The notes below the pieces were generated by a model that searched no databases, had not been told where the DNA came from, and was given only the letters and a program-made list of their open reading frames with translations. From an uncultured Gemmatimonadales bacterium (GTDB lineage: Bacteria > Gemmatimonadota > Gemmatimonadetes > Gemmatimonadales > GWC2-71-9): a stretch of 64,000 nucleotides of DNA. The position numbers and the translations under genes were made by a program. Shown here piece after piece: positions 54,773-64,000 of this stretch (its first letter is position 1; every line of letters starts with the position of its first letter). The stretch is from assembly GCA_963730185.1 (NCBI GenBank), contig CAVSQW010000013.1, forward strand, positions 151,245 through 215,244, in the 5' to 3' direction.

Positions 54773-55291
54773 ATGGAGATTCGGGCGATGGCACCGACCG
54801 ACTGGCCCGCGGTGCGGCGGATCTACGAAGAGGGCATCGCCACCGGCGAGGCGACGTTCGAGACGGCGGCGCCGAGCCGGGAGAGGTGGAACGAGGGACA
54901 CCTGGACCGGGGCCGTCTGGTCGCGATCGGTGACGGGGAGGTCCTCGGCTGGGCGGCGCTTTCGGGCGTGTCCGACCGATGCGTGTATGCCGGGGTCGCC
55001 GAGGTGAGCGTCTACGTGGCGGAGGCGGCTCGGGGGCAGGGGGTGGGCCGCGCCTTGCTCTCGGCCCTGATCGAGGCCTCGGAGCGGGCCGGGATCTGGA
55101 CCCTCCAGGCCGGCATCTTCCCCGAGAACGCGGCCAGCGTCTGGCTTCACATCCAGGCCGGGTTTCGGGAGGTCGGCCGGCAGGAGCGCTTGGGACGCCT
55201 CGGTGGGCGGTGGCACGACGTGCTGCTGTTCGAGCGGCGGAGCGCCGCGGTGGGGACTGACGCCGACTCGCCCGAAGGCGCCGGGCCCTAG
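54773..55291 (+). CDS. GNAT N-acetyltransferase (phosphinothricin-acetyltransferase-like)
   Basis: IYEEGIATGEATFET, ARGQGVG, IFPENAAS, WHDV. Confidence 0.9.
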   Translation: MEIRAMAPTDWPAVRRIYEEGIATGEATFETAAPSRERWNEGHLDRGRLVAIGDGEVLGWAALSGVSDRCVYAGVAEVSVYVAEAARGQGVGRALLSALIEASERAGIWTLQAGIFPENAASVWLHIQAGFREVGRQERLGRLGGRWHDVLLFERRSAAVGTDADSPEGAGP

Positions 55292-56115
55292 CCCTGCTCC
55301 AGCGCCAGCGCGGCCCGGAGGCGTTCCCAACGGCCGCGGGACACCCGGAGCCGCACGCCGCTTCGGAGGACGATCGCGCCGCCCCCGTCGGCTTCCCGAT
55401 GGAGCTCCCGGATCCGCGTCAGCTGGACGATCGTGCTTCGGTGAATCCGGAGAAACGCCTCGGCGTCCAGCGCCGCGTCGAGGGTGTGCAACGACTGGCT
55501 CAGCAGGTGGCGCTCCGTCCCCACGTGAATCCGCACGTAATCTCCCAATGCTTCGATCCAGTCGATGGCGTTGACGTCGATCAGCACGAGCTTGGCGCCG
55601 GTGCGGACGCCGAGGCGGCGGAGCGGCCGGCCGACGCCGGAGCTGCCGGGCTCGAACGTCGCGGGTGCCGCGGTTGCGCCTGACGTTCGGTCGGCCAGCA
55701 GACTCGCCACGGTGTTCCGGACGGTCAGGGCGTCGAGCGCGTCGAGGCGCTCGATCGCCCTGGCCACGGCGGCATCGAACCGGGGCCGGCCGAACGGCTT
55801 GAGCAGATAGTCGAGGGCGTGGACCTCGAACGCTCGGAGGGCGTGCTCGTCGTGGGCGGTGACGAACACCACGCCTCGGGGGACGGCGTCGCCGAGCGCC
55901 GCCAGCACGCCGAATCCGTCGCCGCCCGGCATCTGGATGTCGAGGAAGAGGAGATCGGGGCGGATCGCCCGGACGGTCTCCACCGCGTCCTCGCCGTTGG
56001 CCGCCTCGGCCACGACCTCGACCCGGGGATGGTGGTCGAGGAGGGTGCGGACCACCTCGCGAGCGGCGGGCTCGTCGTCGACGATGACGGCACGGATGGA
56101 ATCGAGCTCGTTCAC
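55288..56115 (-). CDS. LytTR family response regulator
   Basis: DDEPAAR, LDIQMP, ALDYLLKP, FLRIHRSTIV. Confidence 0.93.
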   Translation of the reverse strand: MNELDSIRAVIVDDEPAAREVVRTLLDHHPRVEVVAEAANGEDAVETVRAIRPDLLFLDIQMPGGDGFGVLAALGDAVPRGVVFVTAHDEHALRAFEVHALDYLLKPFGRPRFDAAVARAIERLDALDALTVRNTVASLLADRTSGATAAPATFEPGSSGVGRPLRRLGVRTGAKLVLIDVNAIDWIEALGDYVRIHVGTERHLLSQSLHTLDAALDAEAFLRIHRSTIVQLTRIRELHREADGGGAIVLRSGVRLRVSRGRWERLRAALALEQG

Positions 56116-56116
56116 G

Positions 56117-57241
56117 TCACCGGGCCGGTCCGGGAAGCCACACCGTGACCAGGGTGCCACGATCGGGCGTGCTCTCGAGGTCGAGACGGGCTCGGCCGCC
56201 GTGCAGCTGCTCGAGGCGCTCCCGGGTGTTGGCCAGCCCCGTTCCCGATCCGGGCTGTGGGGTCGGCGCGTCCAGCCCGGGACCGTCGTCGCGGACCAGG
56301 AGCCGTAACCCGCCGTTCGCGAGCTCGCCCGTGACCTCGACCCGGCCGCCCGCCGCTCGGGCCGAGATGCCGTGCCGGACCGCGTTCTCGACCAGCGGCT
56401 GGAGGATCAGGGGAGGGACCTGCCAGCTCAGCGCCTCATCCGGCGCGCGTACCAGGACCGACAGCCGGTCGGGAAAGCGGGCCTGTTCGATGGCGAGATA
56501 CTCCTCGACCATCGCGAGCTCGTCGCCGAGCGGGATCTGGAGGGTCTGGGTGGAGCGCTGCACCCGATGGAAGAGACTGCCGAGGTGGTCGAGGGCGGCC
56601 TCGGCCTCGTCGTCGGCGCCCCGCCGCCAGAGCTGGCCGATGGTGTGCAGCGTGTTGAACAGGAAATGGGGTCGCATCTGCGCGGTCAGGGCCTGAAGCC
56701 GGGCCCGGGCCAGCTGGCCCTCCAACCGGGCCAACCGGAGCTCGCGATCCCGGCTGTCGCGGTAGTACCGGGCGGCCAGCGTGATGGCCAGGACCGCGAG
56801 GTACACGGTGAGGCCGAGATGGAGACGCATCACCGTCCAGCGGGCGCCCTGCTCGAGGAGCGGGCCGAGGCCCTTGAAGGCGCCCGCCAGGGCCCAGTAG
56901 AGGAGAACGACGAGCAGGTTGACGACGAAGGTGAGGGCCACCGCCGCGCCGAGGTGGATCAGGGCATGCGCCAGGCGGCGGCCCGGGGGCAACGGGAAGC
57001 GGAGGGCGAGCGCCACGATGGCGAGCGACACCGGAATCCAGGGAACGGTCTGGATCAGGGCCGATCCGACGGCCGGGCCGAGCGGTGCGGCCGGCCCCCC
57101 GGCCAGGGTCGCCGCGAACGAGGCCTGGGCGCCGATCACGACCGCGATCACGACCCAAGCCGCGGTCACGGCCAGTACCAGCTGCCCGAGGCCCCGGCGG
57201 GGGCCGGGGAGGTCGGAGGAATCGCCGGGTCCGGCTATCAC
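56117..57241 (-). CDS. LytS/YehU-type sensor histidine kinase
   Basis: AQMRPHFLFNTLH, QPLVENAVRHG, GTGLAN. Confidence 0.93.
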   Translation of the reverse strand: MIAGPGDSSDLPGPRRGLGQLVLAVTAAWVVIAVVIGAQASFAATLAGGPAAPLGPAVGSALIQTVPWIPVSLAIVALALRFPLPPGRRLAHALIHLGAAVALTFVVNLLVVLLYWALAGAFKGLGPLLEQGARWTVMRLHLGLTVYLAVLAITLAARYYRDSRDRELRLARLEGQLARARLQALTAQMRPHFLFNTLHTIGQLWRRGADDEAEAALDHLGSLFHRVQRSTQTLQIPLGDELAMVEEYLAIEQARFPDRLSVLVRAPDEALSWQVPPLILQPLVENAVRHGISARAAGGRVEVTGELANGGLRLLVRDDGPGLDAPTPQPGSGTGLANTRERLEQLHGGRARLDLESTPDRGTLVTVWLPGPAR

Positions 57242-57258: not shown

Positions 57259-59471
57259 TCAGTGAGAGCCCAAAGTATAGGTGAGCTTCGCGATCAGCGC
57301 CCGTTGGAGCGAGAGGGGAGGTGCGATGCCGTCCGGGGTCGTGGCCCGGTCGGTATCCAACCCCTCGTTGTAGACCAGCCAGAAGTCGGTTCCCTCCCGG
57401 AAGGCGTAGCGGAGCCTGACGTTGAGGTCGAGCCGGTTGGTGGTGGAGTTGTACTGGACGAACGCGTTGCCTGACGCGCGGGCGTCGGCCGCGACCCTGA
57501 CCCGGAGCCGGGCGAGATGGATGTCGGTGCGCTGGTGCCGGTCGTTGAACCGCAGGAAGGTGGCCTGATAGGCGGCCGCCCAGCTCGAGGTGCGGGCGAC
57601 ACGTTCCAGGTCGGGCTCAGGATCACCTGGGCCCGGGTGCCGTCGAAGTAGCTGCCGGCCCGGGCATCGACGCTGGTGCGGATCCGGCTGCCGGTCGGCA
57701 TGAAGAACACCATCTGCAAGTCGGCGAACGTGTACGACCCGGCGGGGATCTGCGCGGTCCCGACCGGAAAGGCGGCGAGGACGTTCTCGTGGAACACCTT
57801 GGGCTCGATCCAGCCGCCGCCACCGGCTTTCGTGTCCCACTGGACCCAGACGGCGTACTGGGCCGACTCGAGGGCACCGTCGCCGTTCCGCCAGGTCTGG
57901 AACGCGAGCGCCCCGGGGTAGACCCGGCGGAGCCAGGAGCTGCCGTTGGTGAAGAAGAAGTAGTTGCCCACGATGTTGGCGGTCGTGAAGTCCTGGCGGG
58001 GCTCGAACCCGAGCTCGGGGCGGAAGGTCGAGCCGGAGCGGGCCAGGTTGGCGACGTACTGGAGTCCCCGGCCGGTCCGGCGCTCCCACTTGAGATCGAA
58101 CTGGCTCCGGTCGAGGAGCGAGCCCCCCGCCGATGGACTCCCGTTGTCGTCGGTCGCCGCCCACTTGAGGGTCAGGTAGTGGTCGCCGACCACCCGGAAG
58201 GCGCCGTCGAGGCCGAGCGCGAGGTTCCGCCGGCCGCCGCCGAAGTACGACGTGAAGAGGAATCCGGCGGTCGAGTACGGATTCAAGACCTGGCGCCGCA
58301 GTCGGAGCACGTCGAAATGCTCGGCCGGTGAGGTACCCTGGCGGTCGGTCTGCATGGCCAGGAGCCCCACGTCCCAGGGGCCGGCCCGGCCCACCAGGCG
58401 GCCACCGCCCAGGATCCGGACCGGGGCCAGGTCGGCGGTGAGCCCAATCCGGCGGGAGTTGAAGAGCCGCGAGCCGCCCACGCCCGTGTAGTCGAAGATC
58501 CCGCTCCCCTCCTGGAAGAAGCGCCGCCGTTCGGGGTAGTAGAGCGGGAACCGATCCAGGTTCACCTGCTGGTCGTCGGCCTCGACCTGGGCGAAGTCGG
58601 TGTTGGCCGTCAGATCGAGGGTGAGCTGGCTGGACACCGGGTAGCGGACGTCGAGTCCGGCTTCCCGGGATGTGGCGGTGGTGACCACGGAGCCGGGGGC
58701 GACGGCCTCGGCGTTCCGGGTCGTTCCCCCGAGCAGGTACGGCGTCACGTACACCGGGGTCCGGGGCTTGAGCCCGGTGAGGATGACGTCGCGGGCCACC
58801 GACGGTCGCCGGAACTCGAACTTGGGGTCGATCTCCGGGAAGGTGACCCGCTCGCCCGAGCGAGAGATCAGCCGGGTCACGGTCAGGCCCATCACGACGG
58901 TGCCGTCGGGGCCCGGCTTGAAGCCGATGCTCGACAGCGGGATCCGGATCTCGGCGAACCATCCCTCGGCGGTGACGGTGGTCCGGGCGGTCCAGAAGGT
59001 GTCCCAGCTGTCGTTCAAGGTGGCTCCGTCGTCGGACACCAGCTCGTCGAAGCGGATCCCGCCGGGTGTGGTGCCGAACCACTTGCTGTTCTGATTGTCG
59101 TTGAAGGCGTCGATGTAGATGGCGAACGCGTCGTCGCCGTTCCACCGGTCTCGATAGAGCGAGTTGATCCGGATCCCCGACGGATCGGTGTCGTAGAACC
59201 AGCCGGCGGCGTAGAAGTAGTCGTCGTCGTAGGCCACCCTGATCTCGGTCCGCTGGGTGGGTGGCGCCCGGAACACCGGGGCGTAGGTGGTGAGCGGGAG
59301 GGTCGGAATGGCCTGCCAGGCCGGCTCGTCGGGCACGCCGTCGATGGTGACGGGGCCGGGGAGCCGGGGCAGGGGCAGCGGCGCGATCTGGGCGGACAGG
59401 CGGACCGGAATCGTGGCCAGCGTGACAACGAGGCATCCGGCGACGAGCGAGGCTCTCCAACTCACTTCCAT
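57259..59471 (-). CDS. CBM9-like / DUF5916 outer-membrane-associated protein, frameshifted near 57570-57600
   Basis: [25 protein letters not shown]...[15 protein letters not shown]; two +1 insertions separate the C-terminus (AYQATF...AKLTYT). Confidence 0.8.
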
Positions 59472-59583: not shown

Positions 59584-59716
59584 GGTCTGGCGATGGGGGC
59601 CGGCGTCGCCGCGGCGGGCGGGTGGTCAGGACTCGCGCGAATCCGGTCCGTGCCGCAGCGCAATGGTACCGGTCCGATGGTTGCCTGGTAGGATCTTATC
59701 CGGCCGGAGCCATGCT

Positions 59717-60694
59717 GTGCCACATAATTCCTTACTGCTGCGAGCAGTGCACGATAAGGCCAGGATCCGGCGACTTAGCCTGCGAACGGAGCAGGCATAT
59801 CGACGCTGGATCGTCCGGTTCATCCGGCACGCCGGCCTCCGTCACCCCCGCGAGCTGGGCGAGTCTGACGTCGCTCGGTTCCTGACCTGGCTCGCCGTCG
59901 AGCGCGGCGTCTCGGCGTCGACCCAGACCCAGGCTCTCTCCGCGCTGCTGTTCTTGTTTCGGACAGTGCTGGGTCGACCGCTGGGGCGGCTTCCCGAGCT
60001 CCGGTGGGCCTCGCCTCGAGCCAGGCTTCCGGTCGTCCTGACCCCGGACGAGGTGCGAGCCGTGCTGGGCCGGCTCCGGGGCACCTACCGGCTGGTGGGA
60101 CTCCTGCTCTATGGGAGCGGCCTCCGGCTGTTGGAGTGCCTGACCCTCCGGGTCAAGGACCTCGATCTCGCCCGGTTGGAGATCCGGGTCCGGCAGACCA
60201 AGGGGGGTACGCCGAGGGTGACGGTGATCCCGAAGTCGTTGCGGGAAGGGATGCTAGGCCAGCTGGCCAGGGTTCGCCGGATCCATCGGCGCGACCTGAT
60301 GCGCGGCGCCGGAGAGGTCGCCTTGCCGGACGCGCTCGACCGGAAGTACCCGAGTGCGGGCCGCGAGTGGGCCTGGCAATGGGTGTTCCCGGCGACCCGG
60401 ACCCATCGGGAGTCCGATACCGGCGTCATCCGCCGCCACCACCTGCACGCCAGTGGCGTCCAGCGAGCCATGCGCGCCGCTGTCCGGGCATCCGGCATCT
60501 CCAAGCGGGCCAGCTGTCATACCTTGCGACACTCCTTCGCGACGCAACTGCTCGAGTCCGGGCAGGACATCCGGACGATCCAGCAGTTGTTGGGGCATCG
60601 GAGCGTCACGACGACCATGGTCTACACCCATGTCCTGAACCGGGGCGGGTTGGGGGTTCGGAGCCCGGCCGACGGGTTGGGGCTGGAGCCGTGA
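59717..60694 (+). CDS. intI: Integron integrase
   Basis: [39 protein letters not shown], plus the IntI-specific insert [25 protein letters not shown]; start uncertain. Confidence 0.95.
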
Positions 60695-60746
60695 TAATTG
60701 CTTATCTTGCAGACGTGGGTTCACGCAGGTCAAGTAATAGTTAGAC
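60695..60746 (+). other. Putative attI site (R box G/TTAGAC at 60740-60746)
   Basis: GTTAGAC is the exact reverse complement of GTCTAAC, the R'' box of cassette 1's attC; AT-richer spacer right after the intI stop. Confidence 0.7.
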
Positions 60747-60764
60747 CGCTCCAGCTGAGATCCT

Positions 60765-61724
60765 GTGACGCAACGACCTTACCATTGGGACGGCCGCGAG
60801 ATCTGCGACGTCGTCTTGGTCCGAACGCCTTATCCGGATGCGAACGCAGCCGAATCGCGGCCACTTATCTACTTCGATGAGTGCCTCGCACTTACGGACG
60901 ACATCCTACTCGGACCGGTCGACGGCGACTTGGCAGGCCGGATCGCGGACGCATGCTACCCTCGAGGCGAGAATTTCGAACCGACTCGTGTCTACGGCTT
61001 TCCCTACGCTTTCATTCACGATCCGGCCGCCGTCTCCGACAACGAGCTCGCCTTCGATCCTAAGAATCGGCTATTTGCTGCCGTCGCCCTGTCGCGTCTT
61101 GTCCACCCCACTTCGGTCGGCTTCGAGCAATCGGCCCGCCTTCGGCCGCTTCCAGACGGCACCCAGCAGATAATCGCAACTAGGCAGCACCACTTGAATC
61201 CCGCGGCCTTTGTCATTGACCCCGGGAACAACTGACTTATTCCGGACGACGTCAGTCCTCTTCGCGATCTTCTGAGTGCATACCATAATCCCAGTGTGAA
61301 GAAGCCAAACCGGCTTCGCGCCGCGATGTGGTACCATGAAGCTGGCAGCCGGTCGTACTACCTCGACGTCACCTGGGCACTCCTAACGACAGGGCTTGAG
61401 GCTCTGATCCGGATCCGCGACGAAAAGACTCCCGCTGGGAAATGGGTAGGGTCAACCAGGGCGTTTGTCGAGCGCTTGCTAGCTATCGGGACTCTTGTGC
61501 CAGCACTCGCGGTACCCGAGGCGGACCTCAGGGAGATGTACGAGTTACGCTCCCTCATCGTCCACGGGCTTGTGCCGGCCGGCAGCGATCCTCGCGCCTT
61601 CGGCCTACTCCAGAGAAAACAAGCGTTGCTGGCAGGGATCATTCGTCACGCGCTTCTTGACCCAGCGTTCGCCGCGATCTTCGATTCCGACGTAAGCCTG
61701 GCTACGCACATGCCGCTGACCTGA
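60765..61724 (+). pseudogene. Cassette 1: HEPN-motif (Apea-like) protein with in-frame TGA at 61233-61235
   Basis: ORFs 60765-61235 and 61296-61724 are in the same frame with no other stop; GLEAL...MYELRSLIVHG Rx4H motif. Confidence 0.7.
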
Positions 61725-61737
61725 TCCCTTTGGAGCG

Positions 61738-61874
61738 GTCTAACCAATTCTTGAACTGGACGGGCGCCGGCGCTCCGCTTGCGAAGTCGCGGCCGCGCCC
61801 CAATGTTGGTGGGAGGATGGCGGGGCCGCTCAGTTCCGATGCGGCGCCCGCCAGTTAAGAATAGGACGTTAGGC
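61738..61874 (+). other. attC site 1 (137 bp)
   Basis: GTCTAAC...TCTT(G)AACTGG(A)CGGGCGCC / GGCGCCCGCCAGTTAAGA...GTTAGGC. Confidence 0.93.
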
Positions 61875-61990
61875 ATCAAGCCCCGACATCAGAGTACCAG
61901 CTGGCCTGGCAGCGACCTACCGTATCGGGCTCTCAACCCATGGCCCCGAGCCCTCTTGCGCTCGGGAGCCCGGAACGGAACCTTTCTCGT

Positions 61991-62218
61991 ATGGCAAACC
62001 CTGCCTTTGACTTCCGACATCTGTCGATTGCCGAGCGACTCGAGCTCGTTGGCGACATCTGGGATAGCATTGCCGAGGACGCGGATGCGGCCAGTTTCCC
62101 TGTCTCGGACGAGGATAAGGCATTGCTGGATCAGCGATTAGCAGACCTCGAGGCCCATCCAGAGGCCACGATCCCCTGGGAGGAGGTCCGCCGGCGCCTG
62201 ATTGACCGACTCCGCTAG
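61991..62218 (+). CDS. Cassette 2 antitoxin, putative addiction module component
   Basis: LSIAERLELVGDIWDSI...LLDQRL...IPWEEV motif, coupled to the toxin. Confidence 0.9.
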   Translation: MANPAFDFRHLSIAERLELVGDIWDSIAEDADAASFPVSDEDKALLDQRLADLEAHPEATIPWEEVRRRLIDRLR

Positions 62219-62514
62219 TGGCCGCAGCCTTTCGACTTCAGAGCGGGGCCGAAGGGGACCTGGCGGACGCCCTGCTGTGGTACGAGGATCAGGCTGCTGG
62301 CCTCGGCGTCGAGTTCTTCCGGGCCGTGGAAGCGAGGTTCGCGGCAATCCAGCGCAACCCGGAGCTCTACCCGGTTGTGTATCGGGGCGTTCGTCGGGCG
62401 CTGGTGCGCCGTTTTCCCTACAGCATCTACTACCGAGTGGAATCAGGCTCAATCACCGTGCTGGCCTGTCTCCATTCGCGGAGTCATCCACGGCATTGGG
62501 AATCGCGCGCCTGA
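62218..62514 (+). CDS. Cassette 2 RelE/ParE family toxin
   Basis: AEGDLADALLWYE..GLG.EF..RRFPYSIYY..VLACLH..HP..W. Confidence 0.92.
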   Translation: MAAAFRLQSGAEGDLADALLWYEDQAAGLGVEFFRAVEARFAAIQRNPELYPVVYRGVRRALVRRFPYSIYYRVESGSITVLACLHSRSHPRHWESRA

Positions 62515-62515
62515 T

Positions 62516-62652
62516 GCCTAACCAAATCTTGAACTGGACGGGCGCGCGGGGCGCGAATTCCGGAGTCGCGGCCGCGCCCCAATGTTGGGTGGAGGATGGC
62601 GCGGCCGCTCAGCTCCGAGCGGCGCCCGCCAGTTAAGATTCGGACGTTAGGC
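62516..62652 (+). other. attC site 2 (137 bp)
   Basis: GCCTAAC...GTTAGGC with the same L-box arms as attC1. Confidence 0.93.
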
Positions 62653-62769
62653 ATCAAGCCCCGGAGCATCAGGGTATGGCATGCCCGGAGCGTTTTCCGT
62701 ATCGGACTCCGCAACCCACGGCCCCGGGCCCTCTTGCGCTCGGAAGCCCGGCAACGGAACCTTTCTCGT

Positions 62770-63000
62770 ATGGCAAACCCTGCCTTTGACTTCCGCATCT
62801 GTCGATCGCCGAGCGACTCGAGCGTCGTCGGGCGACATCTGGGATAGCATCGCCGAGGACGCGGATGCGGCCAGCTTCCCCGTCTCGGACGAGGATAAGG
62901 CCTTGCTGGATCGGCGCTTAGCCGACGCTCGAGGCTCATCCAGAAGCGACGATCCCCTGGGAGGAGGTTCGCCGGCGTGCTGATTGATCGACTCCGCTAG
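62770..63000 (+). pseudogene. Cassette 3 antitoxin copy, frameshifted
   Basis: Aligns to 61991-62218 with about five single-base indels; premature TAG at 62845-62847. Confidence 0.75.
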
Positions 63001-63296
63001 TGGCCGCAGACCTTCGACTTCAGAGCGGCGCCGAAGGGGATCTGGCTGAGGCCCTGCTGTGGTACGAGGATCAGGCGGCTGGCCTCGGCGTCGAGTTCTT
63101 CCGGGCCGTGGAAGCGAGGTTCGCGGCAATTCGGCGCAACCCGGAACTCTACCCAGTTGTGTATCGCGGCGTCCGTCGGGCGCTCGTCCGCCGATTTCCC
63201 TACAGCATCTACTACCGGGTCGAATCAGGCTCAATCACCGTGCTTGCCTGTGTTCATTCGCGAAGTCATCCACGGCGCTGGCAATCGCGCGCTTGA
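63000..63296 (+). CDS. Cassette 3 RelE/ParE family toxin (paralog)
   Basis: Differs from the cassette 2 toxin at 7 of 98 residues by manual comparison. Confidence 0.92.
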   Translation: MAADLRLQSGAEGDLAEALLWYEDQAAGLGVEFFRAVEARFAAIRRNPELYPVVYRGVRRALVRRFPYSIYYRVESGSITVLACVHSRSHPRRWQSRA

Positions 63297-63297
63297 T

Positions 63298-63435
63298 GCC
63301 TAACCAAATCTTGAACTGGACGGGCGCCCGGGGCCCGGATTGCCGGAGTCGCGGCCGCGCCCCAATGTTGGTTGGAGGATGGCGCGGCCGCTCAGCTCCG
63401 AGCGGCGCCCGCCAGTTAAGATTCGGACGTTCGAC
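63298..63435 (+). other. attC site 3 (138 bp)
   Basis: GCCTAAC...CCAGTTAAGATTCGGAC-GTTCGAC. Confidence 0.9.
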
Positions 63436-63450
63436 GAACAGAGGGCGGTG

Positions 63451-63933
63451 ATGAAACGAGTAGCACTTCTTCTCTTTGTTGGCTGGATCACGACTAGCTG
63501 CGCACCTCTTGATGGTTCTGTCGAAGCAGAGAATCATGAGCTGGTGCACGCGGTGTTCTCGGACGTCTGGAGCAAGGGGAACGTCGAGCTCATCCCCGCT
63601 CTCTTCTCGGAGAGTTACGTCGGTCACTTTCCGGGTGGTGACACCGTGCGTGGTCGAGAAGGTCTGGCATCTGCAGTGATGGCCCACCGTAAGGCCTTCC
63701 CAGATTGGACCGAGGACGTGGAGGGCGTGATCATCGATCACGAGTCGATCGCGGTCCGATTCACGTCGCGAGGCACCAACACGGGGGAGTTTCTGGGCAA
63801 TCCGCCAACAGGAAACCGGGTCGAGATCTCGGAAGTTGTCATATTCAGATTGGAGGACCAGCAGATCGCTGAGCAATGGGTCTATCCGGACATGCTCAGC
63901 CTTCAGCGCCAGCTGAGTGTGCGGCACCAGTGA
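63451..63933 (+). CDS. Cassette 4: SnoaL-like ester cyclase, probable lipoprotein
   Basis: KAFPDW, GTNTGEFLGNPPTGNRVE; signal peptide ending TTSC. Confidence 0.88.
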   Translation: MKRVALLLFVGWITTSCAPLDGSVEAENHELVHAVFSDVWSKGNVELIPALFSESYVGHFPGGDTVRGREGLASAVMAHRKAFPDWTEDVEGVIIDHESIAVRFTSRGTNTGEFLGNPPTGNRVEISEVVIFRLEDQQIAEQWVYPDMLSLQRQLSVRHQ

Positions 63934-63944
63934 AGAATACTGTC

Positions 63945-64000
63945 GTCTAACACGGCGATGCAGCCGGACGGCCGCTACGCGGCCGCCGCTGATCGCCAGA
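63945..64000 (+). other. attC site 4 (short type, truncated by the window end)
   Basis: GTCTAAC-ACGGCGATGCAGCCGGACGGCCGC-TAC-GCGGCCGCCGCTGATCGCC hairpin. Confidence 0.8.

What the first reader, a model, noticed from the sequence alone, without database searches (positions are those of the whole stretch)
59717..64000. Integron with inverted architecture: integrase co-oriented with and upstream of its cassette array
Seen: an intact IntI on +, followed 45 bp after its stop by GTTAGAC and then four cassettes, each closed by an attC, all on +. Known: canonical integrons have attI 5' of intI with divergent cassettes; the co-oriented layout is a minority arrangement, for example in Treponema denticola. 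No transposon genes flank the left side, so it looks chromosomal. Inference: a little-studied integron lineage where cassettes may be expressed by read-through from intI or from a promoter at its 3' end.
Basis: partly seen in the sequence, partly recalled or inferred. Interest (0 to 1): 0.85.

Follow-up and report, generated by a model that had tools for sequence, protein, structure and literature searches.

The report
Reverse integron with candidate self-brake
This is a real bacterial gene-capture device (an integron) whose enzyme gene points toward its own cassettes, a known layout that is normal in this lineage; the only less familiar feature is a conserved pair of sites inside the start of the enzyme gene that look like the enzyme's own binding sites and may let it limit its own production.

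Summary
Confirmed, and a known kind. An intact IntI (59717-60694) is followed 45 bp later by attI (crossover G/TT at 60740/41) and four cassettes; attC4 is cut by the contig end. It is not a misjoin: a contig of another run is identical across the intI stop and attI, then enters a different first cassette, and cassette 4 sits behind other attC arms in two more runs. The layout is the published 'reverse/inverted' integron. It is no minority here: 10 of 10 orientable loci of this order and the closed Gemmatirosa replicon are co-oriented, while 9 of 9 orientable gammaproteobacterial controls are canonical. The scan found this layout before in other Gemmatimonadota and on another contig of this genome.

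The extra finding is an inverted pair of attI-like boxes, 15 bp apart, in intI codons 11-23. They keep rare A/T bases in 8 of 8 relatives despite amino-acid changes, one box ranks first among about 1,900 10-mers in 8 of 8 genes under one of three attI matrices, and both survive in an integrase-less copy elsewhere in the genome. No LexA-type box precedes this intI. IntI self-repression is a testable guess (about 0.3).

The parts
59686..59709 (+). candidate intI promoter (extended -10 TGGTAGGAT, 59686-59694) and ribosome-binding GGAG (59706-59709)
   Evidence: read by eye; a similar TGGTAGGCT precedes intI in L009/L255; not found by the consensus scan; inferred
59717..60694 (+). intI, intact integron integrase, 325 aa, GTG start
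   Evidence: start aligned with ATG/GTG starts of closest relatives
59749..59758 (-). box 2: L-box-like 10-mer CTTATCGTGC inside intI (codons 11-14)
   Evidence: rank 2 of 1902 10-mers in this gene under all three attI matrices; ranks 2-131 in relatives; NAT-AAR kept in 8 of 8
59774..59783 (+). box 3: attI-box-like 10-mer CTTAGCCTGC inside intI (codons 20-23), inverted to box 2, 15 bp away
   Evidence: rank 1 in this gene under all three matrices; rank 1 in 8 of 8 genes under L+DR+R, ranks 1-11 under the other two; YTT-AGC kept in 8 of 8
59724..59735 (+). ATAA-N4-TTAC motif at the intI start, repeated as ATAA-N4-TTAT at the stop (60694-60705)
   Evidence: pattern occurs 4 times in GC-rich parts of the genome: these two and the C14/C16 stub; NTA codon 6 kept in 8 of 8; does not match the attI matrix (ranks 86-1736)
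60695..60746 (+). attI: distal repeat CTTATCTTGC (60701-60710), L box GGTCAAG (60728-60734), 5-bp spacer, R box G/TTAGAC (60740-60746)
   Evidence: same geometry in 8 relatives; L+R is a near-perfect inverted copy of the R''-L'' arm of attC1; run X4 identical to 60746, then another cassette
60741..61868 (+). cassette 1: HEPN-like (RxxxxH) gene 60765-61724 with in-frame TGA at 61233-61235, closed by attC1
   Evidence: 16 homologues, best 50% identical over 95%; W in 13 of 14 aligned homologues at the stop; nearest named Atlas clusters MauJ (49% of members) and HEPN_Apea (15%), leads only; no Pfam or PADLOC hit
61738..61874 (+). attC1, 137 bp, 8-nt L'-R' spacer
61869..62646 (+). cassette 2: TIGR02574 antitoxin (61991-62218) and ParE toxin (62218-62514), closed by attC2 (62516-62652)
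62647..63429 (+). cassette 3: diverged copy of cassette 2 (59 substitutions, 13 gap columns), ParE intact (63000-63296), antitoxin with five 1-nt indels; attC3 63298-63435
63430..64000 (+). cassette 4: SnoaL-like gene (63451-63933); attC4 from 63945, cut by the contig end
   Evidence: same cassette behind two other attC arms in runs X2 and X6

Best explanation
This is a complete reverse (inverted-integrase) integron in a chromosome-like setting, whose intact IntI likely excises attC-bounded cassettes and inserts them at the attI 45 bp behind its own stop codon, and whose first cassettes are likely read from a transcript that starts in front of intI. Shown: the parts, their geometry, a different first cassette at the same G/TT in another sample, and cassette 4 in other arrays. 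From established knowledge of IntI1 and VchIntIA (recalled): folded bottom-strand attC recombines with double-stranded attI. Inferred: read-through transcription (about 0.55 on its own), and supply of IntI in trans to integrase-less attI platforms of the same genome. The host is most likely Gemmatimonadales, judged from titled relatives of the integrase.
For: IntI family score and residues. attI geometry in 8 relatives. X4 contig: 0 differences over 60675-60746, then 79 unlike letters; X2 and X6 join cassette 4 to other attC arms at its boundary. Orientation survey: own order 10 co-oriented, 0 canonical, 18 uncalled of 28; Gemmatirosa kalamazoonensis L132 with 14 co-oriented attC; gammaproteobacterial control 0, 9, 19 of 28; spirochaete-order set 11, 1, 17 of 29. 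Housekeeping flank. C6 and C14 arrays share stretches of 666, 555 and 655 bp at 98, 97 and 91%. No terminator-like site between intI and attI.
Against: No recombination or transcription was measured. No sigma-70 consensus promoter was found in front of intI or in attI, so the promoter is unplaced; class 2 integrons keep Pc inside attI (PMC5559693) and a putative Pc next to attI is described for the Treponema reverse integron (PMC7691350). The X4 evidence is one 151-nt contig at depth 2. No contig spans the whole locus. The assembly shows indel noise (C14/C16 overlap 94.8% with 43 gaps), so stops and frameshifts may be errors. Flank synteny is weak: 1 of 16 relatives has a DUF5916 gene upstream, about 3 kb away. 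My attC finder is a heuristic, not IntegronFinder, and left 158 of 243 loci uncalled.
Confidence: 0.9

Rival explanations
1. Add-on to the main reading: IntI binds the inverted box pair in codons 11-23 of its own gene and blocks the shared intI-cassette transcript, replacing SOS control by a negative feedback loop.
For: Codons 6, 13 and 20 keep an A/T third base in 8 of 8 relatives although the residue changes (TTA/GTA/ATA, GAT/CAT/TAT, CTT/TTT); only 6 of 313 columns reach 7 of 8, four of them in codons 6-23. Leave-one-out attI matrices rank box 3 and box 2 at or near the top. The frameshifted C14 stub keeps both boxes at the same 15-bp spacing, as a perfect 7-bp inverted repeat, with a diverged spacer. 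ATAAG-N15-CTTA occurs only at intI and the stub in GC-rich parts of the genome, which argues against a global host regulator. A LexA-type direct repeat seen before lexA and recA precedes 1 of 34 intI loci, not this one; background 64 of 1892 windows.
Against: The 8 genes are kin. I spotted the boxes as TA-rich words, which the matrix also rewards. Column 267 is also 8 of 8 with a residue change, and the protein-fixed HTLR codons (+802) also score high. 5' ends are AT-richer in this genome (AT3 0.15 against 0.10). The motif is absent from the sister C6-type and wider order genes inspected (18 rows). A 15-bp spacer is not a simple site. The LexA motif is my inference from two genes.
Confidence: 0.3
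2. The conserved 5' words are a promoter element, an RNA structure or a site for another regulator, not IntI sites.
For: DNA-level conservation is real; the alignment consensus pairs box 2 with box 3 weakly (-2.8 kcal/mol) with one two-sided change, and the stub folds that pair.
Against: Pair probability is near 0 in 7 of 8 coding copies; no TAnnnT hexamer fits on either strand by inspection and the promoter scan is empty; no further copies in the genome.
Confidence: 0.35
3. Cassettes are expressed from a separate Pc in the intI 3' end or attI, independent of intI transcription.
For: Precedent in class 2 integrons (PMC5559693) and the putative Pc of Treponema (PMC7691350, 10.1101/427781). Three integrase-less platforms of the C6 type (C12, C17 twice) keep attI and, by eye, a trace of the intI 3' end, with no convincing match to an intI 5' end.
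Against: No consensus promoter there; in L134 and L035 the intI reading frame runs into the attI L box (2 and 6 nt from stop to crossover), so the transcript reaches attI anyway.
Confidence: 0.4
4. Assembly artefact or a locally inverted canonical integron.
For: Error-prone assembly; contig ends in the array.
Against: Independent contig across stop and attI; same layout in 10 of 10 orientable loci of the order and in a closed named replicon; no attC upstream.
Confidence: 0.02

Closest known systems
Reverse / unusual / inverted-integrase integrons (Treponema denticola type; also Chlorobium phaeobacteroides, Blastopirellula marina). PMC3607928, 10.1101/427781, PMC7691350, PMC4889954, PMC13323075: passages read
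   Same: intI transcribed toward attI and co-oriented with the cassettes; attI with L, R and direct-repeat boxes between intI and the first cassette; standard IntI and attC.
   Different: Much shorter stop-to-attI distance (45 nt); long GC-rich attC (137 bp) with an 8-nt L'-R' spacer (18 of 21 sites in this order against 5 nt in 15 of 16 spirochaete sites); in the 57-row tree a 99* branch separates the spirochaete and cyanobacterial integrases from the group that holds this one.
Class 1 integron (IntI1/attI1; L133, named plasmid)
   Same: 54% identical integrase, same catalytic residues and insertion domain; attI of simple site plus upstream repeat (PMC10500605, passage).
   Different: Class 1 is divergent, mobile and LexA-controlled (PMC3108266, passages); here co-oriented, no transposon genes in the flank, no LexA-type box. 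Bottom-strand extrahelical bases here are T and C against T and G in class 1 attC (recalled).
CALINs / integrase-less arrays (PMC4889954, listing and one passage; concept recalled)
   Same: The C14/C16, C12 and C17 platforms of this genome are arrays or cassettes behind an attI without intI.
   Different: The C14/C16 copy keeps about 80 bp of the intI 5' end joined within about 120 bp to an attI of this very integron's type.

Membership tests
Integron | IntI tyrosine recombinase with the IntI-specific insertion and intact catalytic residues | tested here: met
Integron | attI with L box, 5-bp spacer and R box GTTRRRY next to intI | tested here: met
   alternative first cassette at the same point
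Integron | Cassettes closed by attC (R''/L''/L'/R', bottom-strand hairpin, extrahelical bases on the R''-L'' arm) | tested here: met
   for attC1-3 (own heuristic, not the IntegronFinder model); attC4 truncated
Integron | Cassette promoter Pc | tested here: inconclusive
   no consensus promoter found; no RNA holder listed
Integron | IntI-catalysed recombination | not testable with these tools
   only indirect: cassette exchange at the predicted crossover points
Reverse (inverted-integrase) integron | [quoted passage not shown] | tested here: met
Reverse (inverted-integrase) integron | IntI falls in the spirochaete/cyanobacterial/planctomycete clade | tested here: inconclusive
   not inside that clade, but 37 co-oriented rows are one side of a 99* branch against 12 canonical rows in an unrooted 57-row tree, L184 set aside; PMC4889954 already calls the group paraphyletic
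Mobile (transposon-borne) integron | Transposase or Tn402-type genes beside the platform | tested here: not met
   left flank only; right side lies beyond the contig end
SOS-regulated integron | LexA box in the intI promoter | tested here: not met
   motif inferred from this genome's lexA and recA is absent from -250..+30 of this intI; the motif itself is unvalidated

The most novel reading that the evidence does not exclude
In one Gemmatimonadales lineage of reverse integrons the integrase represses itself through an inverted pair of its own binding boxes written into codons 11-23 of intI. One promoter would then drive integrase and cassettes under IntI feedback instead of SOS, and integrase-less mini-platforms that keep promoter, boxes and attI would stay under that control in trans.
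Probability: 0.3. Interest if true: 0.7.

Novelty: new member of a known kind. Interest (0 to 1): 0.38.

Why it matters
The layout itself is in print and is handled by standard tools, so it adds one more member. Two points have some value. First, among this integrase's relatives the 'inverted' layout is the rule across many soil phyla, so the textbook divergent layout may be the proteobacterial special case (sample biased, tree unrooted). Second, how integrases without a LexA box are kept in check is an open question (PMC3108266 names another regulator as a possibility to explore); the box pair gives a concrete 35-bp target that one EMSA and one reporter fusion can test.

Tried and rejected
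RNA expression: no RNA holder listed. Sigma-70 promoter and terminator scan: 0 promoters, 2 terminator-like hits, both at chance level. RNA hairpin for the 5' boxes: not supported in 7 of 8 coding copies. Xer dif reading of ATAA-N4-TTAT: rejected, spacer is 4 not 6 bp (dif geometry recalled). Search for C14-like stubs in 21 other genomes of the genus by DNA similarity: only short GC-rich matches. attI pattern in 151 family genomes: 1 further hit, which has its intI. The idea that decayed platforms preferentially keep the intI 5' end: three such cases (G020, G012, G018) were found with a 5' pattern, and one search lists many 3'-only remnants, so it is not used as evidence. C12 and C17 platforms: no convincing intI 5' remnant (C17 scores near the shuffled maximum, C12 modestly above it on poor alignments). 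Flank synteny inconclusive. Cassette 1: no Pfam or PADLOC family. Literature on IntI self-repression: not found in two searches or in term look-ups in PMC8876359, PMC5559693 and PMC3108266; Gemmatimonadota reverse integrons not found in searches beyond phylum lists. The library lacks most subscription papers and I read no supplements, so the IntI tree of PMC4889954 (its Figure S2) may bear on this. L246 and L184 are single-hit 'canonical' calls that may be false. L261 was left out of all counts.
Full report
Observation. The window is the last 64 kb of contig C13 of a 5.27-Mb, 70% GC genome in 17 contigs. The ORF from GTG 59717 to TGA 60694 scores 415.9 bits on TIGR02249 (cut-off 265) and aligns with IntI1 at 54% identity, with the catalytic residues and the IntI insertion in place. 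GTTAGAC begins at 60740, 45 nt after the stop. I wrote an orientation-aware attC finder (R''-5 nt-L'' with a bulge on the left arm, 5-8 nt spacer on the right, paired stem). It finds three sites in the whole window, all on + in the array. A looser version finds 10 in the genome, all at four array loci; it misses several real sites seen. The fourth attC stops just short of R' at the contig end. GC falls from 0.705 in the flank to 0.62 in the array. The ORFs scanned between 25 and 59.7 kb are housekeeping genes or have no family (32 sent, three more).

attI. The 52 bp after the stop hold a repeat box (CTTATCTTGC), an L box (GGTCAAG), a 5-bp spacer and the R box. Eight relatives show the same plan, with 2 to 79 nt from stop to crossover. 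L plus R is an almost perfect inverted copy of the R''-L'' arm of attC1. Independent runs back this up. A 151-nt contig of X4 is identical over 60675-60746 and then continues into unrelated sequence, so the intI-attI junction is real and takes other first cassettes. Cassette 4 is found at 99% in X2 and X6, each behind a different attC right arm, the match starting at 63428 and 63433. These are low-depth contigs; none spans the locus, and no RNA holder was listed.

Cassettes. Cassette 1 encodes a 319-codon HEPN-like protein; homologues are 234-341 aa and have Trp where the window has TGA (13 of 14 aligned). The family is unnamed; MauJ and HEPN_Apea are leads only. Cassettes 2 and 3 are diverged copies of a TIGR02574-ParE addiction module, the second with five indels in the antitoxin. 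Cassette 4 is SnoaL-like. The assembly is noisy (C14/C16 overlap 94.8% with 43 gaps), so breaks may be errors.

How common is the layout. IntI relatives occur in 43 of 61 genomes of the order; titled relatives are mostly Gemmatimonadales, then Acidobacteriota, Rokubacteria, Myxococcota, Cyanobacteriota and others. Of 264 loci with a near-full IntI, 243 were non-redundant and 85 could be oriented: 71 co-oriented, 14 canonical. By set: own order 10/0 of 28, titled genomes 26/2 of 80, metagenome contigs 23/2 of 76, spirochaete-order set 11/1 of 29, gammaproteobacterial control 0/9 of 28, and Gemmatirosa kalamazoonensis with 14 co-oriented attC. The control shows that the finder tells the two layouts apart. 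A FastTree of 244 rows needs 3 changes of layout (shuffled mean 13.2). In a 57-row IQ-TREE subset that I picked, 37 co-oriented rows form one side of a 99* branch against 12 canonical rows (L184 set aside), and the spirochaete and cyanobacterial rows are split from the window's group by another 99* branch. The trees are effectively unrooted and lack Vibrio-type integrases, so they do not give the direction of change.

What is known. The layout is described for Treponema (PMC3607928, PMC7691350), Chlorobium and Blastopirellula (10.1101/427781), is treated as one of two expected types in a soil survey (PMC13323075), and is called paraphyletic in PMC4889954; Gemmatimonadota appear in phylum lists (PMC8618304, PMC10500605). 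I read passages of these, also of PMC9668308, PMC3108266, PMC5559693, PMC8876359 and PMC2426708; no full texts or supplements. Earlier notes of this scan report the same layout in other Gemmatimonadota and on C6 of this genome; I had reached that reading before opening them.

Other platforms in the genome. A second co-oriented intI (53% identical, frameshifted in the assembly) heads an array on C6. C14, duplicated at the end of C16, carries about 80 bp homologous to window 59706-59784 and, some 120 bp later, an attI homologous to 60696-60744; both alignments beat 300 of 300 shuffles, the middle part does not. Its array uses the same 137-bp attC family and shares three stretches of 555-666 bp with C6 at 91-98%. 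Three more attI sites of the C6 type lie on C12 and C17 without intI.

The 5' boxes. The stub drew attention to AT-rich words in the first 23 codons. In 8 subclade genes (near-duplicate L090 and outlier L011 dropped) 6 of 313 codon columns have A/T at the third base in at least 7; four are codons 6, 13, 20 and 23, and the first three are 8 of 8 although the residue varies. The other two are codons 150 and 267. Matrices built from the attI boxes of the other seven loci rank the 10-mer at +58 first of about 1,900 in 8 of 8 genes (L+DR+R; ranks 1-11 with L+DR, 1-5 with L only) and the inverted 10-mer at +33 at 2-19 (2-76 and 2-131 with the other two); the word at codon 6 does not score. In the stub these two rank 1 and 3 of 782 (L+DR+R), keep the 15-bp spacing and form a perfect 7-bp inverted repeat. 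The pattern has no other copy in GC-rich parts of the genome. RNA pairing is not supported in the coding copies. A GTTC-N7-GTTC repeat found twice before lexA and once, with a mismatch, before recA precedes 1 of 34 intI loci, the background rate. Against: kin are not independent, the matrix rewards the TA-rich words by which I found the boxes, the protein-fixed HTLR codons also score well, and 18 more distant genes lack the motif.

Mechanism. Shown: platform, cassettes and exchange at the predicted crossover points. Known from other integrons (recalled): IntI recombines folded bottom-strand attC with attI. Inferred: with 45 bp and no terminator-like site between intI and attI, a transcript from the candidate extended -10 at 59686-59694 would run into cassette 1; a separate Pc near attI remains a real rival. 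If integrase and cassettes share a promoter without LexA, a brake on IntI is needed, and IntI bound at boxes 2 and 3 could supply it; I put this at 0.3.

Verdict. Real, active-looking, a new member of a known kind and ordinary for its lineage. Interest 0.38, carried mostly by the testable box pair.

Noticed in passing
G000:C14:2100-2345 (L002) and G000:C16:31346-31592 (L003): Integrase-less platform: about 80 bp of the intI 5' end plus an attI of the window's type, followed on C14 by an array of about nine attC. C16 ends exactly at the attI R box and overlaps the start of C14 at 94.8%.
   Followed up: yes
G000:C6:184308-200000 (L001): Second co-oriented integron next to a tRNA-like fragment; intI frameshifted in the assembly; the only intI of 34 with a LexA-type repeat upstream; shares cassette-sized stretches with C14.
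   Followed up: partly
G000:C17:112958-113309 and 116979-117329; G000:C12:249318-249422: Three attI sites of the C6 type without intI; the two on C17 end a duplicated 350-bp element (89% alike) that starts with a GC-rich hairpin after TAGAT, each followed by cassette-like genes.
   Followed up: partly
G000:C15:702339-702600 (-) and C15:526500-526835 (+): GTTC-N7-GTTC direct repeats before lexA (two) and recA (one, one mismatch): candidate LexA box of this lineage.
   Followed up: partly
L318 (G020:C522), L317 (G012:C198), L319 (G018:C139): Same-genus intI genes cut after about 60 or 194 codons and joined straight into array sequence, or internally deleted.
   Followed up: partly
L134 and L035/L006: The intI reading frame runs through the attI repeat and stops in or just after the L box, 2 and 6 nt before the crossover.
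   Followed up: no
L184: One canonical call nested among co-oriented Methylomirabilota/Rokubacteria-like integrases: a reversal or a false hit.
   Followed up: no
window 61738-61874, 62516-62652, 63298-63435: attC family with an 8-nt L'-R' spacer (18 of 21 sites in this order) and C instead of G as first bottom-strand extrahelical base.
   Followed up: partly
window 57259-59471 (-): DUF5916 gene divergent from intI appears frameshifted near its 3' end; a LytS/LytTR-type pair follows at 55288-57241.
   Followed up: no
G000:C7 about 715000-758262 and C12 about 422000-434977: AT-rich contig ends (a 3-kb locus on C7 is 35% GC) in a 70% GC genome: foreign DNA or misjoins.
   Followed up: no
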